The position numbers and the translations under genes were made by a program. DNA of 64,000 nt. It comes from a phage. The notes beneath the pieces were generated by a model that worked only from the letters and a program-made list of their open reading frames with translations, was not told the origin of the DNA and searched no databases. Location of the stretch: assembly GCA_036252695.1 (NCBI GenBank), contig GCA_036252695.1_4122.1. One strand, given 5' to 3'. Shown here piece after piece: positions 1 through 64,000 of this stretch; the stretch's first letter is position 1, and the number at the start of each line of letters is the position of its first letter.

Positions 1-375
1 AGTGTTACACCAGATGATTTTTTAAGAGGTAGTGGGCATCCATTGCGTGCAGGTTATTCCCAGCAATATGCATATGTTAACATTATTTCAGACAACGATT
101 TACCTATTGCTTTAAAATATGGTATTGAAAAACAAAAAGGAAAACGTGTTAAGCAACAAAATAAAAAATCATTATTTAAAGTAAAACTAATTTGTGTATA
201 TAGTTTCCCAACTGTGATAAATTGTAAGGAAGCAGAAAAAGAATGCAAGAGACTATTTGGTAATGGTATCTTGTCTAAAAAAGAAATGCCAGATGGATAT
301 ACAGAAACAACTACAATCACTAATTTAGAAAAAATTTTATCGATCTATGAAAAGTGGGGTGGTGTAAAACAATAG
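1..375 (+). CDS. Cys-rich hypothetical protein, C-terminal fragment (5' end outside window); paralog of 674..2017
   Basis: Frame open from window edge; C-terminal ~100 aa align with end of 674..2017 product (shared ..ECKR.F..GDGYTETTT..IYEKWGGVKQ); followed by same terminator/promoter module. Confidence 0.6.
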   Translation, partial: SVTPDDFLRGSGHPLRAGYSQQYAYVNIISDNDLPIALKYGIEKQKGKRVKQQNKKSLFKVKLICVYSFPTVINCKEAEKECKRLFGNGILSKKEMPDGYTETTTITNLEKILSIYEKWGGVKQ

Positions 376-385
376 CACATAAAAA

Positions 386-418
386 GGGTTGACTTCGGTC
401 AGCCCTTTTTGCTATAAT
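386..418 (+). promoter_or_regulatory. terminator hairpin with embedded -35 (TTGACT) followed by TATAAT
   Basis: gggttgac-ttcg-gtcagccc (386..405), TTTTT, TATAAT 413..418; same module at 2014..2046. Confidence 0.65.
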
Positions 419-444
419 TATTTCATCAACTCAAGAGGTAATAC

Positions 445-684
445 ATGAAACTATCTTTTATACGATTGGCTGAATTCTTTGGTACTGATGTAATTACTTT
501 ACAACAAATTGCAGACAATACTTCATTAAGTACACAAGAAGTACTTGACTTAGATGTAATTCAGTGCGATAATACTTCCATCGATTACAAAGAAGGTCTT
601 GTCGAAAAAGATAAGATTCAAGCTAAGATTAATGGTGCTGGACGGGTTCAGTACTGGAAAGGAGTTTTAAGTAATGCGTGTTGA
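445..684 (+). CDS. hypothetical small protein
   Basis: 79-aa ORF, SD-like aagagg upstream, overlaps next start by 11 nt. Confidence 0.45.
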   Translation: MKLSFIRLAEFFGTDVITLQQIADNTSLSTQEVLDLDVIQCDNTSIDYKEGLVEKDKIQAKINGAGRVQYWKGVLSNAC

Positions 685-2017
685 TATTAAAGTACCTTTT
701 AAATGTACCAAATTGAATTTCATACAAGATGTTAGAATTACAATTTGTTCAAAAATGGTCGATTCTGATAAAATAACTCGTATTATTTTATCAGAACGCC
801 ATCCAACAAAAGATTTCAACCATATGGATTTTAATAAATTACCCCAAGATGATTTTTCCAATAATGATAACTCGATTTTGGGATATTTCATTTACAATAA
901 TAGTAAACACTATCTTAAAAAATATGATGTCCCGAATGGTTTAATATATGGATTGGGAATAAACTCCATACATATTACTAAAAAGAAATCTGCAACAAAG
1001 TGGACAAAGAAAACAAATACACAACATATTATGACTATTATTGAACAATTCAAAAAATTCAGTGGTGGGATATATACATTATTGGGTCTTGGTTCTTATG
1101 ATAAAATTAATGCTACCAACACTGAGATACTAATTTATTGTAACAAACATAATGTGTTTTGTTCTATTTCTAATATTAATACGTTAACATCAAAAAATAA
1201 AACATTTGGTTGTATGAAATGTAAAAAAGAGTCAATAACTAAAACTAACTCTAAACCACTACAATATTATATAGATAAAATTAATAATAATGGTCATTTA
1301 ACTAATGAATTTACAATTCAACCATCAGAAAAGATGAGGGGAAATTATCGTTTATACAAATTTGTGTGTGCGAAGTGTAGTTATGATGAATATGTACAAG
1401 CTGGTGTATGTGATGGTGTATTCTACGCAACACTAAATGATTTATCATCTGCACATATTATACCGTGTAGGTGTTCAACTAATTTCCACTGGACTAAATC
1501 ACAGTATGTATATCGTATAAAAAAGGAATTAGAATTTCGTAATTCAAATGATAAATTTATAGGGTTTGAACACAATCCAGAAAAACCAAATCAGAAAACT
1601 AACATAATGTTGATGGGGAGTAGTAATAATTTACCATATAAAACATCTATAACGAACTTTTTAGATAAACATCAAGGTAACCCATATGATGCTGGAAAGT
1701 GTGCAACATATACATATATTCATGTAATAATGGACAGCGGGGTATGTGTTGGTGTGAAATATGGAAAAGAAACAGTAAAGGGCAATCGAGTTTCAAAACA
1801 AAATTTGAATAGTATTTTTGATATAAAACCAATGTATTCGTATCGCTTCCCAAGTGTTGAAAATTGTACTAACGCAGAAAATGAATGTAAAAGGCAGTTT
1901 TGTCCAATCTTCACTAAAAGAGAGGTGGGGGATGGGTATACAGAAACAACTACACCAAACAACATAGATAAAATTATTGCCATCTATGAAAAATGGGGTG
2001 GGGTGAAACAAAACTAA
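674..2017 (+). CDS. Cys-rich hypothetical protein (447 aa)
   Basis: Long ORF, SD aaggag 9 nt upstream of ATG; several CxxC pairs; C-terminus paralogous to 1..375. Confidence 0.7.
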   Translation: MRVDIKVPFKCTKLNFIQDVRITICSKMVDSDKITRIILSERHPTKDFNHMDFNKLPQDDFSNNDNSILGYFIYNNSKHYLKKYDVPNGLIYGLGINSIHITKKKSATKWTKKTNTQHIMTIIEQFKKFSGGIYTLLGLGSYDKINATNTEILIYCNKHNVFCSISNINTLTSKNKTFGCMKCKKESITKTNSKPLQYYIDKINNNGHLTNEFTIQPSEKMRGNYRLYKFVCAKCSYDEYVQAGVCDGVFYATLNDLSSAHIIPCRCSTNFHWTKSQYVYRIKKELEFRNSNDKFIGFEHNPEKPNQKTNIMLMGSSNNLPYKTSITNFLDKHQGNPYDAGKCATYTYIHVIMDSGVCVGVKYGKETVKGNRVSKQNLNSIFDIKPMYSYRFPSVENCTNAENECKRQFCPIFTKREVGDGYTETTTPNNIDKIIAIYEKWGGVKQN

Positions 2018-2046
2018 ACAAAAGGGTTGACTTCGGTCGGCCCTTT
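2014..2046 (+). promoter_or_regulatory. terminator hairpin with embedded -35 followed by TATAAT (second copy)
   Basis: gggttgac-ttcg-gtcggccc, TTTTT, TATAAT 2041..2046, directly upstream of the NTPase gene. Confidence 0.65.
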
Positions 2047-2084
2047 TTGCTATAATTATTTCATCAACTACAGAGGGTAACGAA

Positions 2085-62367: not shown

Positions 62368-62684
62368 AATTTAATATAGCAAAAACATCTAATGTATGTA
62401 TATTTGGTTATGCTGATGAGTTAGGTGATCTTGACATTCTATTGTACAAAAAGGATGGTGTTATGCATTTCAAGTACCAGGATGAAGAGGCAGACAATTA
62501 TCCTTTACCTAATTTAGTACAAATGCAGGAAGATGAATTATTCCAGTACAGCTTAGTATATGACATTGATATTTGCACGATGCCAGTACTAATTAATATT
62601 CAAAAAGTGATGCTCGATGTGTTTGATAGGCTAATACAAGGCACACAAGGAAGAACCATATATGTCAATGTACAAGACAATTAA
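62364..62684 (+). CDS. Fam-F hypothetical protein (EDELFQYSLVYD motif)
   Basis: ATGA-coupled 106-aa ORF. Confidence 0.6.
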   Translation: MKFNIAKTSNVCIFGYADELGDLDILLYKKDGVMHFKYQDEEADNYPLPNLVQMQEDELFQYSLVYDIDICTMPVLINIQKVMLDVFDRLIQGTQGRTIYVNVQDN

Positions 62685-62877
62685 TCAAGAATGGAAGACC
62701 CAAAAGTACAGGGAATTCAGTACTAGTTTAACAAAAGATGCATTGAATTTAAAAAGAACAGAGTTTGATATGTTTATTTTTCTTGGAACACGTTCACAGG
62801 AACAATACATTCATTATTATATAAGTTCATTGCGAACGGAGATCGTATGCAAAACACAGGGTATTATAAAAAAGTAA
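62662..62877 (+). CDS. Fam-L-like small protein (LGTRSQEQYI)
   Basis: Divergent family member; start may be 62668. Confidence 0.5.
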   Translation: MSMYKTINQEWKTQKYREFSTSLTKDALNLKRTEFDMFIFLGTRSQEQYIHYYISSLRTEIVCKTQGIIKK

Positions 62878-63113
62878 ACCAATATTTGTACGCTACAAAG
62901 TACAGGGATTTTTGTTTAAAGGGTGGTGATGAAGATTTTTCTTTGCGATTATCAGAATTTAATCTGTTATTTTATCTTGGTACATCGGAACAAGAAGAAA
63001 TGGCACAGAAATTTATCAAGCACCTTGAACAAAAAATTCATATGCAAATTTTGATGCTTAAGGTACATAATGAGATAAACAAATATGAACCCAACAATAG
63101 TACAGGATCTTAA
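62847..63113 (+). CDS. Fam-L-like small protein (LGTSEQEEMA)
   Basis: Divergent family member; start uncertain. Confidence 0.5.
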   Translation: MQNTGYYKKVNQYLYATKYRDFCLKGGDEDFSLRLSEFNLLFYLGTSEQEEMAQKFIKHLEQKIHMQILMLKVHNEINKYEPNNSTGS

Positions 63114-63471
63114 ACAAGTAATATTCCTTTTGAATACAAGAAGTGAAATGTATACAGAGTTTAAAGAGATTAATGCATTTTATCAGAATTTTGTAATTCA
63201 AGAGTTCAGTGATTTAATTACAGATGCATTATTTGAATTATCGGAAAAATACAAAGGATCAGAGTTCAGTGTTAAGAATGTTATTCGTCCAATTACAAGG
63301 AAAATTATATTATCACATTTTACATTTGACAATAAAGATTTATTCAGTCATAATCCAAGTACAGCTTTATATTTTATTCCTGATTCAGACAAAAATCATC
63401 CTATTCATTACGGATGGATTTTGTCGTACATAGTACAAGGAAAGGAGTATCCTATTAAATGGAACGATTAG
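63085..63471 (+). CDS. hypothetical protein (128 aa)
   Basis: ORF in series with the array. Confidence 0.5.
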   Translation: MNPTIVQDLKQVIFLLNTRSEMYTEFKEINAFYQNFVIQEFSDLITDALFELSEKYKGSEFSVKNVIRPITRKIILSHFTFDNKDLFSHNPSTALYFIPDSDKNHPIHYGWILSYIVQGKEYPIKWND

Positions 63472-63619
63472 GGCGATTAGATTATTACACAATTAATACA
63501 AATTATTTGTTGCGTAATATAAAATCCGATTACAAAATATGGATAAAGAACAGAGATAGTATGTGTTATGAATTTTATTTAGATTATGCCATCAAACGCT
63601 TTTTAAGAGAAGAACATTA

Positions 63620-63811
63620 ATGCACACACCGCACAAAGAGCACAAAAATACAAAAACGATAAATGTTTTAAATGATTCTTTATTGGTGAGTATAAATTTA
63701 TATTATAAAATTCATTTAAATGGTGGTATTGAAAATTTTAGTTATTATTTGAGTACAATATCGCAAGAGCATTTAATATACCAAGATCATTTATTGCACC
63801 CGAATCCATAA
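63620..63811 (+). CDS. hypothetical small protein
   Basis: 63-aa ORF; weak signals. Confidence 0.35.
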   Translation: MHTPHKEHKNTKTINVLNDSLLVSINLYYKIHLNGGIENFSYYLSTISQEHLIYQDHLLHPNP

Positions 63812-63819
63812 GGCGAATT

Positions 63820-64000
63820 ATGAATGAGATAGAATTATTAGCACACAAGATTAGTACAATAATGCTTATCCTAAATAACAACCATCCTATATCGCAGATA
63901 GATGGAATCCTGAGTCAGAGGACAGGTGGTAGTTTATATTTGACATTAACAGAGGTTATCGCAAGGAATTACATTGATATTGAAATCGAGAACAGTGATG
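63820..64000 (+). CDS. hypothetical protein, N-terminal fragment (continues beyond window)
   Basis: Open frame from ATG 63820 to window end; SD-like aaggcg. Confidence 0.35.
   Translation, partial: MNEIELLAHKISTIMLILNNNHPISQIDGILSQRTGGSLYLTLTEVIARNYIDIEIENSD

What the first reader, a model, noticed from the sequence alone, without database searches (positions are those of the whole stretch)
1..64000. Strong over-representation of the palindrome AGTACT (often CAGTACTG), embedded in promoters and terminators
AGTACT occurs in promoter upstream regions (aaAGTACTtgcaa; cAGTACTattgacaTAGtttgatAGTACTgacataat), in most terminator stems (gccagtac..gtactggc) and about 17 times in the 33.4-35.2 kb region alone. 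Composition (~35% GC) predicts roughly 20 in the whole window (my rough estimate). Palindromic hexamers are normally avoided in phages, so enrichment suggests a recognition site for a DNA-binding regulator, nucleoid-type protein or modification enzyme.
Basis: partly seen in the sequence, partly recalled or inferred. Interest (0 to 1): 0.65.

Follow-up and report, generated by a model that had tools for sequence, protein, structure and literature searches.

The report
Iterated AGTACT palindrome marking jumbo-phage DNA
A group of giant viruses of gut bacteria carries the six-letter palindrome AGTACT about ten times more often than chance and keeps it there by selection, much like the unexplained iterated palindromes of cyanobacteria, so some still unidentified viral factor probably reads it as a label for the virus's own DNA.

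Summary
AGTACT occurs 265 times in 64 kb against 22 expected; CAGTACTG occurs 62 times against 1. The window comes from a Rak2/121Q-like E. coli jumbo phage (Asteriusvirus type).

The excess is not a by-product of promoters, terminators, repeats or codon usage:
- Coding sequence alone holds 166 copies, in all three frames, against 59 after synonymous shuffling and 26 after codon-order shuffling.
- At least 203 copies have unrelated flanks.

Copies are retained about twice as well as control hexamers among close relatives. Positions turn over completely between genera, yet density stays at about 2.4 per kb. The excess (5-14x) is present in every sampled enterobacterial Rak2-like genus, absent from PA5oct, Atu_ph07, T4 and T5, and the motif is rare in E. 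coli.

Density peaks (6-8 per kb) in the 21-kb terminal repeat, where copies sit in fixed slots beside the -35 and -10 boxes of early promoters. In every AGTACT-rich genome GCGC is completely absent.

Best reading: a selection-maintained genome tag read by an unidentified clade-specific factor, closest to cyanobacterial HIP1. The reader protein and the function are inferred, not shown. SlmA binding is rejected, and the coding excess is not a codon-usage effect.

The parts
1..64000 (.). Dispersed AGTACT copies: 265 in all, 166 in coding sequence, 95 intergenic, 4 on gene edges
   Evidence: Coding density is 3.0 per kb and intergenic density 10.2 per kb, against a composition expectation of 0.34 per kb.
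33576..54750 (+). Terminal-repeat (DTR) equivalent carrying the early genes; AGTACT-dense zone with 133 copies, 6.3 per kb
   Evidence: Position 1 of fEgEco12, a physical genome end confirmed experimentally in PMC13070987, aligns to window 33,576. Its 20,993-bp DTR ends near window 54,750. In fEgEco12 the density is 4-10 per kb over 0-21 kb and 0 over 21-26 kb.
28201..33575 (+). Array of roughly 60-aa genes just upstream of the right terminal repeat; 44 copies, 8.2 per kb
33233..34770 (.). Mostly non-coding stretch spanning the physical genome end. It holds 14 intergenic AGTACT copies, several of them as the 12-bp palindrome TTCAGTACTGAA (33546, 34640).
35182..35216 (+). Type A early promoter, aaAGTACTTGCAA-N16-TATAAT; the motif overlaps the first T of the -35 box. 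There are 14 copies of AAAGTACTTGCA (35182, 35642, 36323, 36881, 37685, 38330, 40662, 40981, 43842, 47309, 47856, 51138, 51995, 53826).
47018..47045 (+). Type B early promoter, TTGACA-N9-AGTACTGTATAAT; the motif abuts the -10 box. There are 11 copies of AGTACTGTATAAT (33956, 38352, 39136, 42703, 42933, 44300, 44885, 47033, 48335, 48606, 51468).
41222..41257 (+). Promoter with two motifs 22 bp apart, AGTACTaTTGACAtagtttgatAGTACTgaCATAAT. It is repeated at 41514 and 44592.
51113..51172 (+). Upstream pair: TTCAGTACTGAA centred near -60, then an A/T-rich tract, then AGTACTTGCAA at the -35 box. It is part of a module of about 160 nt repeated at 43.7, 47.7, 51.0 and 52.9 kb.
17317..17335 (-). Terminator hairpin GCCAGTACT-c-TGTACTGGC plus a T run. 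About 13 such hairpins lie between the RCC1-like paralogues (for example 5371-5397, 7262-7280, 8467-8489, 16050-16076, 18526-18554, 20984-21002, 23303-23330).
5402..28156 (-). About 22 paralogous RCC1-like genes of roughly 380 aa; baseline AGTACT density of 2.6 per kb, mostly inside the genes
54616..59252 (+). AGTACT-free stretch of 4.6 kb, starting at the end of the terminal repeat; an array of overlapping genes of about 70 aa
   Evidence: The same desert is seen in fEgEco12 at 21-26 kb.

Best explanation
AGTACT is a selection-maintained 'iterated palindrome' of the enterobacterial Rak2-like jumbo phages. It occurs about once per 150-500 bp; extrapolating the sampled densities gives on the order of a thousand copies per genome (my inference, no whole genome was counted).

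What it most likely does: it is the recognition sequence of a clade-specific, phage-encoded factor that reads duplex DNA symmetrically and with restriction-enzyme-like precision. The recognised unit is a strict hexamer, with only 'not G' preferred at the flanking position.

Because E. coli DNA has roughly 30-130 times fewer copies per kb, the motif works as a density tag that sets phage DNA apart from host DNA. It would direct the factor, whether binding, protecting or modifying, onto the phage genome. What is selected is the density and evenness of copies, not individual positions.

The tag is densest in the 21-kb terminal repeat, which carries the sigma70 early promoters. There the copies occupy the free slots flanking the -35 and -10 boxes, so occupancy by the factor would also modulate early transcription, most simply by shutting it off.

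Shown here: the excess, its DNA-level nature, retention by selection, positional turnover with constant density, restriction to one clade, scarcity in the host, even spacing, the peak in the terminal repeat, and the promoter slots.

Inferred: that a phage-encoded reader exists, that it is symmetric, that the motif acts as a self tag, and that it affects early promoters.
For: The excess is large and specific:
- 265 copies against 22 expected; single-mismatch variants reach at most 3.9x.

It acts at the DNA level:
- All three reading frames are enriched. Coding copies number 166 against 59 after synonymous shuffling and 26 after codon-order shuffling.
- Ser-Thr dipeptides number 168 against 106 expected, and 67 of them are encoded AGTACT against 23.5 expected.

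Copies are retained:
- Against phage UB, 83% of AGTACT hexamers are intact, compared with 62% of background hexamers.
- In a four-genome comparison the loss fraction is 0.159, against 0.284 for same-composition hexamers and 0.316 for all other hexamers. Gains (9) are not inflated.

Density is selected, not position:
- RaK2 and GAP32 orthologues carry 40 and 44 copies, and only 3 share a position.
- Spacing is more even than random in 6 of 6 homogeneous regions, CV 0.80-0.88 against 0.98-0.99.

The trait belongs to one clade, not to the host:
- 5-14x in the window, UB, Sharanji, RaK2, GAP32, Erwinia pEa_SNUABM_19 and two IMG/VR relatives.
- 0.1x in PA5oct and Atu_ph07; 0.7x in T4 and T5.
- E. 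coli K-12 has 3 copies in 50 kb.

Recognition is strict: flank information is at most 0.34 bits at position -1 and about 0 beyond.

Density peaks in the terminal repeat, with a sharp drop at its end. Copies occupy fixed promoter slots.
Against: No reader protein was identified:
- Pfam, PHROGs and NCBIfam scans of 105 window ORFs found no recognisable DNA-binding domain.
- The two methyltransferases of the clade (Dam family PF05869 and m5C PF00145) appear to have other specificities. The RaK2 authors describe DNA cut only by enzymes insensitive to Dam, Dcm, CpG and EcoKI methylation, and bisulfite-detected methyl-CpG, both as data not shown (PMC3622015).

A strict hexamer is unusual for a regulator.

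The promoter slots could simply be the only unconstrained positions in those promoters, and many of the promoters are copies of one another.

The high density in the terminal repeat could reflect weaker coding constraint in small accessory genes.

In the four-genome comparison losses (18) outnumber gains (9), so slow decay of an older signal is not excluded.
Confidence: 0.45

Rival explanations
1. HIP1-like methylation or modification target. AGTACT is the site of a phage DNA methyltransferase or other post-replicative modifying enzyme, and copies are kept because the modified sites are useful, or because a repair system linked to the enzyme restores them.
For: Strict hexamer recognition with no flank information is typical of type II methyltransferases. 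The closest known phenomenon, cyanobacterial HIP1, is tied to orphan methyltransferases (PMC4390886). The AGTACT-rich clade encodes adenine and cytosine methyltransferases (PMC5259590), whereas the PA5oct paper mentions none. A motif this frequent would be lethal against any ScaI/Eco255I-type host enzyme unless it is protected (my own knowledge of those enzymes).
Against: The RaK2 authors describe Dam-, Dcm-, CpG- and EcoKI-type methylation sensitivity and methyl-CpG, not AGTACT. The near-cognates a deamination-repair drive should deplete (AGTATT, AATACT) are at 1.4-1.6x. Gains of new copies are not elevated. fEgEco12 DNA is cut normally by 10 enzymes, although ScaI was not among them.
Confidence: 0.2
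2. Chi-like signal for a phage helicase-nuclease. AGTACT attenuates or redirects a phage-encoded exonuclease, or stimulates recombination. This would protect phage ends and intermediates while host DNA is destroyed. Being a palindrome, the signal works from either direction.
For: The motif is densest in both terminal regions, evenly spaced, rare in the host and strictly defined. It co-occurs perfectly with total absence of GCGC, which suggests a phage activity that attacks GCGC-rich host DNA. True E. coli Chi is also concentrated in the same terminal repeat. The clade encodes a RecD-like helicase and a Cas4-like PD-(D/E)XK nuclease.
Against: Known Chi sequences are asymmetric and occur at roughly one per several kb, more than 10 times sparser than here (my own knowledge). 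No RecBCD/AddAB-type complex has been shown for these phages. The fixed promoter positions are not explained.
Confidence: 0.15
3. Non-functional origin: a mutational or gene-conversion drive, or inflation by duplicated promoter cassettes, terminators and paralogous genes.
For: Many promoter and terminator copies are clearly duplicated. The AGTACT-free 4.6-kb paralogue array shows that duplication shapes local density. Losses slightly exceed gains.
Against: 203 independent contexts remain after collapsing repeats. Late-gene regions of RaK2 and GAP32, which lack these cassettes, still show 7x. Gains are not elevated as a drive would predict, whereas losses are halved. The same hexamer is maintained in four genera despite full positional turnover. 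Near-cognates are not depleted.
Confidence: 0.08
4. Operator of an early-gene repressor or activator only. The functional copies are those at the early promoters and the rest are incidental.
For: 36 of 46 early promoters carry the motif at fixed offsets overlapping the -35 or abutting the -10, some with pairs 20-24 bp apart. Intergenic density of 10 per kb is specific to the early region.
Against: 166 of 265 copies are inside genes and exceed every shuffle. Structural and replication genes of relatives carry 2.3-2.4 copies per kb with no intergenic excess. Coding copies are conserved above background, 80% against 60%.
Confidence: 0.07
5. Hijack of the host nucleoid-occlusion protein SlmA, whose binding site GTGAGTACTCAC has the same core. 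Phage DNA would act as a sink or activator to block host cell division.
For: The AGTACT core is shared with the SlmA site (PMC3020112). The trait is limited to phages of enterobacteria.
Against: SlmA needs G1, T2 and a purine at position 3. The window has 0 full GTRAGTACTYAC sites and only 8 of about 530 matching half-sites. G at the flanking position is the least used base in all genera, 6-9%. T5, an unmodified coliphage, shows no enrichment.
Confidence: 0.02

Closest known systems
HIP1 (GCGATCGC), the highly iterated palindrome of cyanobacteria
   Same: A strict short palindrome that is over-represented ten-fold or more. It occurs in coding and non-coding DNA and in all frames, is kept by selection with positional turnover, and is spaced more evenly than random. 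Its function is unresolved (PMC4390886, PMC5861425).
   Different: Here the motif is a hexamer, not an octamer, and it sits in a virus, not a cellular genome. No cognate methyltransferase has been shown. Density peaks in a terminal repeat and at early promoters. The excess is coupled to total absence of another palindrome, GCGC.
DNA uptake sequences (USS of Haemophilus, DUS of Neisseria)
   Same: A highly over-represented strict oligomer found in genes and, as inverted pairs, in terminator stems (my own knowledge; compare the GCCAGTAC..GTACTGGC hairpins).
   Different: USS and DUS are asymmetric, 9-12 nt long, and explained by biased uptake during transformation. No comparable uptake step is known for a virulent phage.
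Chi (GCTGGTGG) and other crossover hotspot sequences
   Same: An over-represented strict oligomer that marks 'self' DNA for a helicase-nuclease. Real Chi is itself enriched in the same terminal repeat.
   Different: Chi is asymmetric, orientation-dependent and about ten times sparser. AGTACT is a palindrome with no known nuclease partner.
SlmA-binding site (GTGAGTACTCAC) of E. coli
   Same: Identical six-base core (PMC3020112).
   Different: The flanks that SlmA requires are absent and even disfavoured.
ScaI / Eco255I restriction-modification site
   Same: The same hexamer and the same strict, flank-independent definition.
   Different: Phages normally avoid restriction sites, and this genome lacks about 25 other palindromic hexamers entirely. 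AGTACT is instead enriched twelve-fold.
Phage genome-coating proteins with preferred sites at early promoters (SPO1 TF1, phi29 p6; from my own knowledge)
   Same: A phage protein that binds along the whole genome and also represses early promoters would fit both the genome-wide copies and the promoter slots.
   Different: Those proteins recognise modified or bendable DNA loosely, not a strict hexamer. No such protein is known in Rak2-like phages.

Membership tests
Highly iterated palindromes (HIP1-type) | Short perfect palindrome over-represented ten-fold or more against composition | tested here: met
   265 against 22, 12.3x; 5-14x in relatives.
Highly iterated palindromes (HIP1-type) | Present in coding sequence in all frames beyond what codon and peptide usage allow | tested here: met
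   166 against 59 (synonymous shuffle) and 26 (codon-order shuffle); frames 67/34/65.
Highly iterated palindromes (HIP1-type) | Maintained by selection: retained above background, with abundance conserved across lineages | tested here: met
   83% against 62% conserved. Loss fraction 0.159 against 0.284-0.316. Density conserved with positional turnover.
Highly iterated palindromes (HIP1-type) | Spacing more regular than random | tested here: met
   CV 0.80-0.88 against 0.98-0.99 in 6 of 6 regions; individual P from 0.001 to 0.2.
Highly iterated palindromes (HIP1-type) | Cognate orphan methyltransferase recognising the motif or its core | not testable with these tools
   Dam-family and m5C methyltransferases are present, but their specificity cannot be read from sequence. 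Published hints point to other sites.
Chi-type nuclease-regulating sequence | Asymmetric sequence with orientation bias | tested here: not met
   The motif is a perfect palindrome, so no orientation is possible.
Chi-type nuclease-regulating sequence | Recognised by a RecBCD/AddAB-type helicase-nuclease | not testable with these tools
   Only a RecD-like helicase and a Cas4-like nuclease are annotated in Sharanji.
SlmA-binding sites | GT(R)AG(Y) half-sites: G1, T2, a purine at position 3 | tested here: not met
   0 full sites; 8 of about 530 half-sites. Position -1 is C in 47% and G in 8%. Requirements taken from PMC3020112.
Operator of a phage transcription regulator | Sites concentrated at promoters, at fixed positions relative to the -35 and -10 boxes | tested here: inconclusive
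   Fixed slots in 36 of 46 early promoters. However, 63% of copies are inside genes, and late regions show no intergenic excess.
Operator of a phage transcription regulator | Extended, partly degenerate dyad of 12-20 bp | tested here: not met
   Strict hexamer. Flank information is at most 0.34 bits at -1 and about 0 further out. TTCAGTACTGAA occurs only 7 times.
Restriction site under avoidance | Depletion relative to expectation | tested here: not met
   Twelve-fold enrichment, while about 25 other palindromic hexamers and GCGC are at zero.
Uptake-signal sequences (USS/DUS) | Biased DNA uptake by a competence machinery | not testable with these tools
   No such step is known for a virulent phage. 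Only the resemblance in distribution, including terminator pairs, was seen.

The most novel reading that the evidence does not exclude
AGTACT and GCGC together form a two-sided self/non-self sequence code in enterobacterial Rak2-like jumbo phages, which lack bulk base modification. The phage has purged every GCGC (0 against about 390 expected across all sampled genomes; E. coli has about 7 per kb) because it encodes an activity that attacks GCGC-containing host DNA. It has loaded itself with AGTACT (host about 0.06 per kb) as a positive tag. A phage factor reads this tag to protect, organise or transcribe only phage DNA. This would be a sequence-based functional equivalent of the hydroxymethylcytosine discrimination used by T4.
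Probability: 0.15. Interest if true: 0.9.

Novelty: new variant of a known kind. Interest (0 to 1): 0.72.

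Why it matters
Iterated palindromes such as HIP1 have resisted explanation for thirty years, partly because cyanobacterial genomes are large and their methyltransferases are essential. Here the same kind of signal sits in culturable E. coli phages with a short life cycle and a genome that restriction enzymes cut normally. It has clear internal contrasts: a dense terminal repeat, a motif-free stretch next to it, and motif-poor relatives.

That makes the question of what reads such a motif, and why density is selected, directly testable by ScaI digestion, methylation-aware sequencing, DNA-affinity proteomics and recoding.

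If the motif is a self tag, it would show how a giant phage without bulk base modification tells its own DNA from the host's. It would also matter for engineering and for the host-range and defence sensitivity of therapeutic jumbo phages: on the order of a thousand ScaI/Eco255I-type sites per genome, extrapolated from the sampled densities.

I found no paper reporting the motif.

Tried and rejected
Explanations rejected:
1. Codon or peptide artefact. Rejected by the synonymous and codon-order shuffles.
2. Inflation by repeated promoters, terminators or paralogues. 203 independent contexts remain, and late-gene regions of relatives are still at 7x.
3. Host SlmA sites. The flanks do not fit.
4. 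A general coliphage or host-driven trait. T4 and T5 are at 0.7x.
5. A repair drive of the VSP type. Near-cognates are not depleted and gains are not elevated.

Searches that led nowhere:
6. A reader protein among the window's ORFs. Pfam, PHROGs and NCBIfam found only RCC1-like repeats, a DksA/TraR zinc finger, a ParE-like toxin, a GNAT acetyltransferase and a CapR-like domain; nothing DNA-binding.
7. Methyltransferases. Sharanji's Dam-family and m5C enzymes were located. The paper's third 'methyltransferase', WNN14829.1, has no Pfam or PDB match. A tblastn survey of the Dam-family enzyme showed a huge, uninformative family.
8. IMG/VR scan for clustered AGTACT triples.
9. Rfam and tRNA scans of the window found nothing.
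10. Literature searches for AGTACT in phages, for methylomes and for GCGC avoidance found nothing relevant.

Full report
**What the window is**

Megablast places the window in the Rak2/121Q-like E. coli jumbo phages (Asteriusvirus type). The best partial matches are UB, BF17, Turkey3, fEgEco12, G17 and Sharanji at 88-97% identity.

A crude ORF map gives the following layout:
- 0-5.4 kb: genes on the + strand.
- 5.4-28.2 kb: about 22 paralogous RCC1-like genes of roughly 380 aa on the - strand.
- 28.2-33.2 kb: an array of genes of about 60 aa.
- 33.2-35.2 kb: a mostly non-coding stretch.
- 35-64 kb: many small + strand genes, most with their own promoter.

Position 1 of fEgEco12 is a physical genome end confirmed by PhageTerm and restriction mapping, and that phage has a 20,993-bp direct terminal repeat (PMC13070987). 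Position 1 aligns to window 33,576 and the repeat ends near window 54,750. Window 33.6-54.7 kb is therefore the terminal repeat, which carries the early genes.

**The observation**

AGTACT occurs 265 times against 22.0 +/- 5.0 in dinucleotide-preserving shuffles. CAGTACTG occurs 62 times against 1.0. AGTACT is the top-ranked hexamer.

The signal is sharply specific. Single-mismatch variants reach only 0.2-3.9x, and about 25 other palindromic hexamers are absent altogether.

**Not a by-product of promoters, terminators, repeats or codons**

- 166 copies lie fully inside ORFs (3.0 per kb) and 95 are intergenic (10.2 per kb).
- The coding copies fall in all three frames (67/34/65). They exceed synonymous-codon shuffles (59.1 +/- 6.6, maximum 77) and codon-order shuffles (26.3 +/- 4.6).
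- Both codon choice and peptide sequence are bent towards the motif. Ser-Thr dipeptides number 168 against 106 expected, and 67 of them are encoded AGTACT against 23.5 expected.
- Collapsing copies whose 50-nt flanks are at least 60% identical leaves 203 independent contexts.

**Selection**

Against phage UB (89.5% identity over 40 kb), 83% of AGTACT hexamers are intact, compared with 62% of background hexamers. The split is 80% against 60% in coding sequence and 88% against 70% in intergenic sequence. Divergence dips inside the motif.

In a four-genome comparison (window, fEgEco12, Sharanji, UB; 21.7 kb aligned in all four):
- 95 copies are shared by all four genomes.
- The loss fraction is 0.159, against 0.284 for the 179 same-composition hexamers and 0.316 for all other hexamers.
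- The least-lost control hexamers are those overlapping the motif's own flanks.
- Gains on terminal branches (9) are not inflated relative to losses (18). This argues for retention by selection and against a creation drive.

At greater distance, 21 orthologue pairs of RaK2 and GAP32 (about 64% nucleotide identity) carry 40 and 44 copies, with only 3 at the same position. That is about what neutral decay would leave, yet both genomes hold about 2.4 copies per kb. What is conserved is density, not position.

Within homogeneous regions the spacing is more even than random. The CV is 0.80-0.88 against 0.98-0.99 in six of six regions.

**Distribution across genomes**

AGTACT-rich genomes:
- window 12.3x
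- UB 13.9x
- Sharanji 12.5x, 10.0x and 5.3x (early, accessory and replication regions)
- RaK2 7.1x
- GAP32 7.2x
- Erwinia pEa_SNUABM_19 6.1x
- two IMG/VR relatives, 9-10x

Genomes without the excess:
- the more distant relatives PA5oct and Atu_ph07, both 0.1x
- the unrelated coliphages T4 and T5, both 0.7x
- E. coli K-12, 3 copies in 50 kb

The trait therefore belongs to one phage clade and is not imposed by the host in general. It gives a 30-130-fold density contrast between phage and host DNA.

Among the densest loci examined, the hits outside this clade were tandem peptide repeats.

**Anatomy in the early region**

Density is 6.3 per kb across the terminal repeat and 8.2 per kb in the 5 kb upstream of it. 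It drops to zero for 4.6 kb at the repeat's end. The same step is seen in fEgEco12.

Of 46 sigma70-like promoters in 33-57 kb, 36 carry the motif in a few fixed slots:
- overlapping the first T of the -35 box (AAAGTACTTGCAA, 16 promoters)
- abutting the -10 box (AGTACTGTATAAT or AGTACTGnCATAAT, 19 promoters; in the latter form its TG supplies an extended -10)
- fused to the 3' end of the -35 box (TTGACAGTACT, 4 promoters)
- just upstream of the -35 box (4 promoters)
- near -60, as TTCAGTACTGAA (5 promoters)

Several promoters have two copies 20-24 bp apart. Many of these promoters are copies of one another.

In late and metabolic regions of RaK2 and GAP32, intergenic density (2.1-2.8 per kb) equals coding density (2.3-2.4 per kb). 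The intergenic excess is therefore special to the early region.

Hairpins of the form GCCAGTAC-loop-GTACTGGC followed by T runs terminate the RCC1-like paralogues.

**Nature of the recognition**

Symmetrised flanks carry almost no information. Position -1 prefers C (25-47%) and disfavours G (6-9%) in all genera. Further positions carry 0.12 bits or less.

This is the recognition style of a type II enzyme or a restriction-fold protein, not of a degenerate operator.

**Mechanism**

The data fit a genome-wide tag read by a clade-specific, symmetric reader, with selection acting on density and evenness. I take this as the best explanation (confidence 0.45). It carries the added inference that occupancy at promoter slots modulates early transcription.

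Rivals:
- A HIP1-like methylation or modification target (0.20). The strict hexamer and the presence of methyltransferases support it. Against it, published hints assign those enzymes to other sites, and nothing in the k-mer spectrum points to a repair drive.
- A Chi-like signal for a phage nuclease or recombinase (0.15). The end-proximal density, the even spacing and the GCGC and Chi findings below make it attractive. The palindromic form and the very high density are unlike any known Chi.
- A non-functional drive or repeat inflation (0.08).
- A promoter operator only (0.07).
- SlmA hijack (0.02). This is rejected because the flanks SlmA requires are absent.

**Comparison with the known**

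The closest known phenomenon is cyanobacterial HIP1 (PMC4390886, PMC5861425). Here the features of over-representation, all-frame coding occurrence, selective retention and regular spacing are met. The link to a methyltransferase could not be tested.

None of the Rak2-like phage papers read mentions the motif: Sharanji, fEgEco12, CBB, RaK2 and PA5oct. Full-text searches also found no report.

I classify it as a new variant of a known kind: an iterated palindrome in a virus, with a terminal-repeat and promoter component, coupled to total loss of GCGC.

**Limits**

- No reader protein was identified.
- Relatives were sampled in 25-50 kb pieces, not as whole genomes.
- The gene map is heuristic.
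- The neutral expectations in the gain and loss analysis are empirical controls, not a fitted model.

Noticed in passing
whole window; also L001, L002, L004, L006-L008, L131, L066, L074: The tetranucleotide GCGC is completely absent: 0 against 46.9 +/- 6.2 in the window, and 0 against about 390 expected over all AGTACT-rich genomes sampled. It is normal in PA5oct, Atu_ph07, T4 and T5, and very frequent in E. coli (342 per 50 kb). Absence of GCGC and excess of AGTACT co-occur perfectly. This suggests a phage or host activity that is lethal at GCGC.
   Followed up: partly
window 34174, 40596, 45107, 45617, 46567, 47814, 50183, 51591, 53054 (+ strand); 34162, 40534, 15329, 15587 (reverse orientation): E. 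coli Chi (GCTGGTGG) occurs 9 times on one strand inside the terminal repeat, against 0.17 expected. fEgEco12 has 10 copies, plus reverse-oriented copies 578 and 6,619 bp from the physical left end. The orientation fits protection of both genome ends from RecBCD.
   Followed up: partly
window 33233-34770, physical end near 33576: A non-coding stretch around the genome terminus contains several short direct repeats: gttaaaattcagcctg (2 copies), gattgctcaag (3 copies) and a four-fold ggctaaacggctagat-type repeat. This may be a packaging or terminus-processing region.
   Followed up: no
window 54616-59252: A 4.6-kb stretch with no AGTACT starts at the end of the terminal repeat. It is an array of overlapping paralogous genes of about 70 aa, and it is also AGTACT-free in fEgEco12 and depleted in Sharanji. 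Tandem amplification of a unit that lacked the motif is the likely cause.
   Followed up: partly
window 43715-43880, 47721-47895, 51010-51175, 52936-53130: A module of about 160 nt is repeated four times. It runs: promoter (TTGACT-N17-TATTAT), then a conserved short segment TAGCCCACAGGGTGCATAAGTGTATCTAT, then an optional Chi, then two AGTACT copies, then a second promoter. It may encode a small RNA. There is no Rfam match.
   Followed up: partly
whole window: About 25 other palindromic hexamers have zero copies against 2-7 expected, among them AGCGCT, AGGCCT, CAGCTG, CCATGG, CGATCG, CTCGAG, CTGCAG, GAGCTC and GGTACC. This is strong restriction-site avoidance alongside the AGTACT excess.
   Followed up: no
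window 5402-28156, - strand: About 22 tandem paralogues of an RCC1-like beta-propeller protein of roughly 380 aa, each followed by a similar hairpin terminator. Database records call them 'chromosome condensation regulator' by domain name only.
   Followed up: no
window about 45718-46392, by correspondence with fEgEco12 g030/g031: The early region encodes a DksA/TraR-type zinc-finger protein, a GNAT acetyltransferase and, elsewhere in the window, a ParE-like toxin domain and a CapR-like domain. These are candidate host-takeover functions. The exact window ORFs were not assigned.
   Followed up: no
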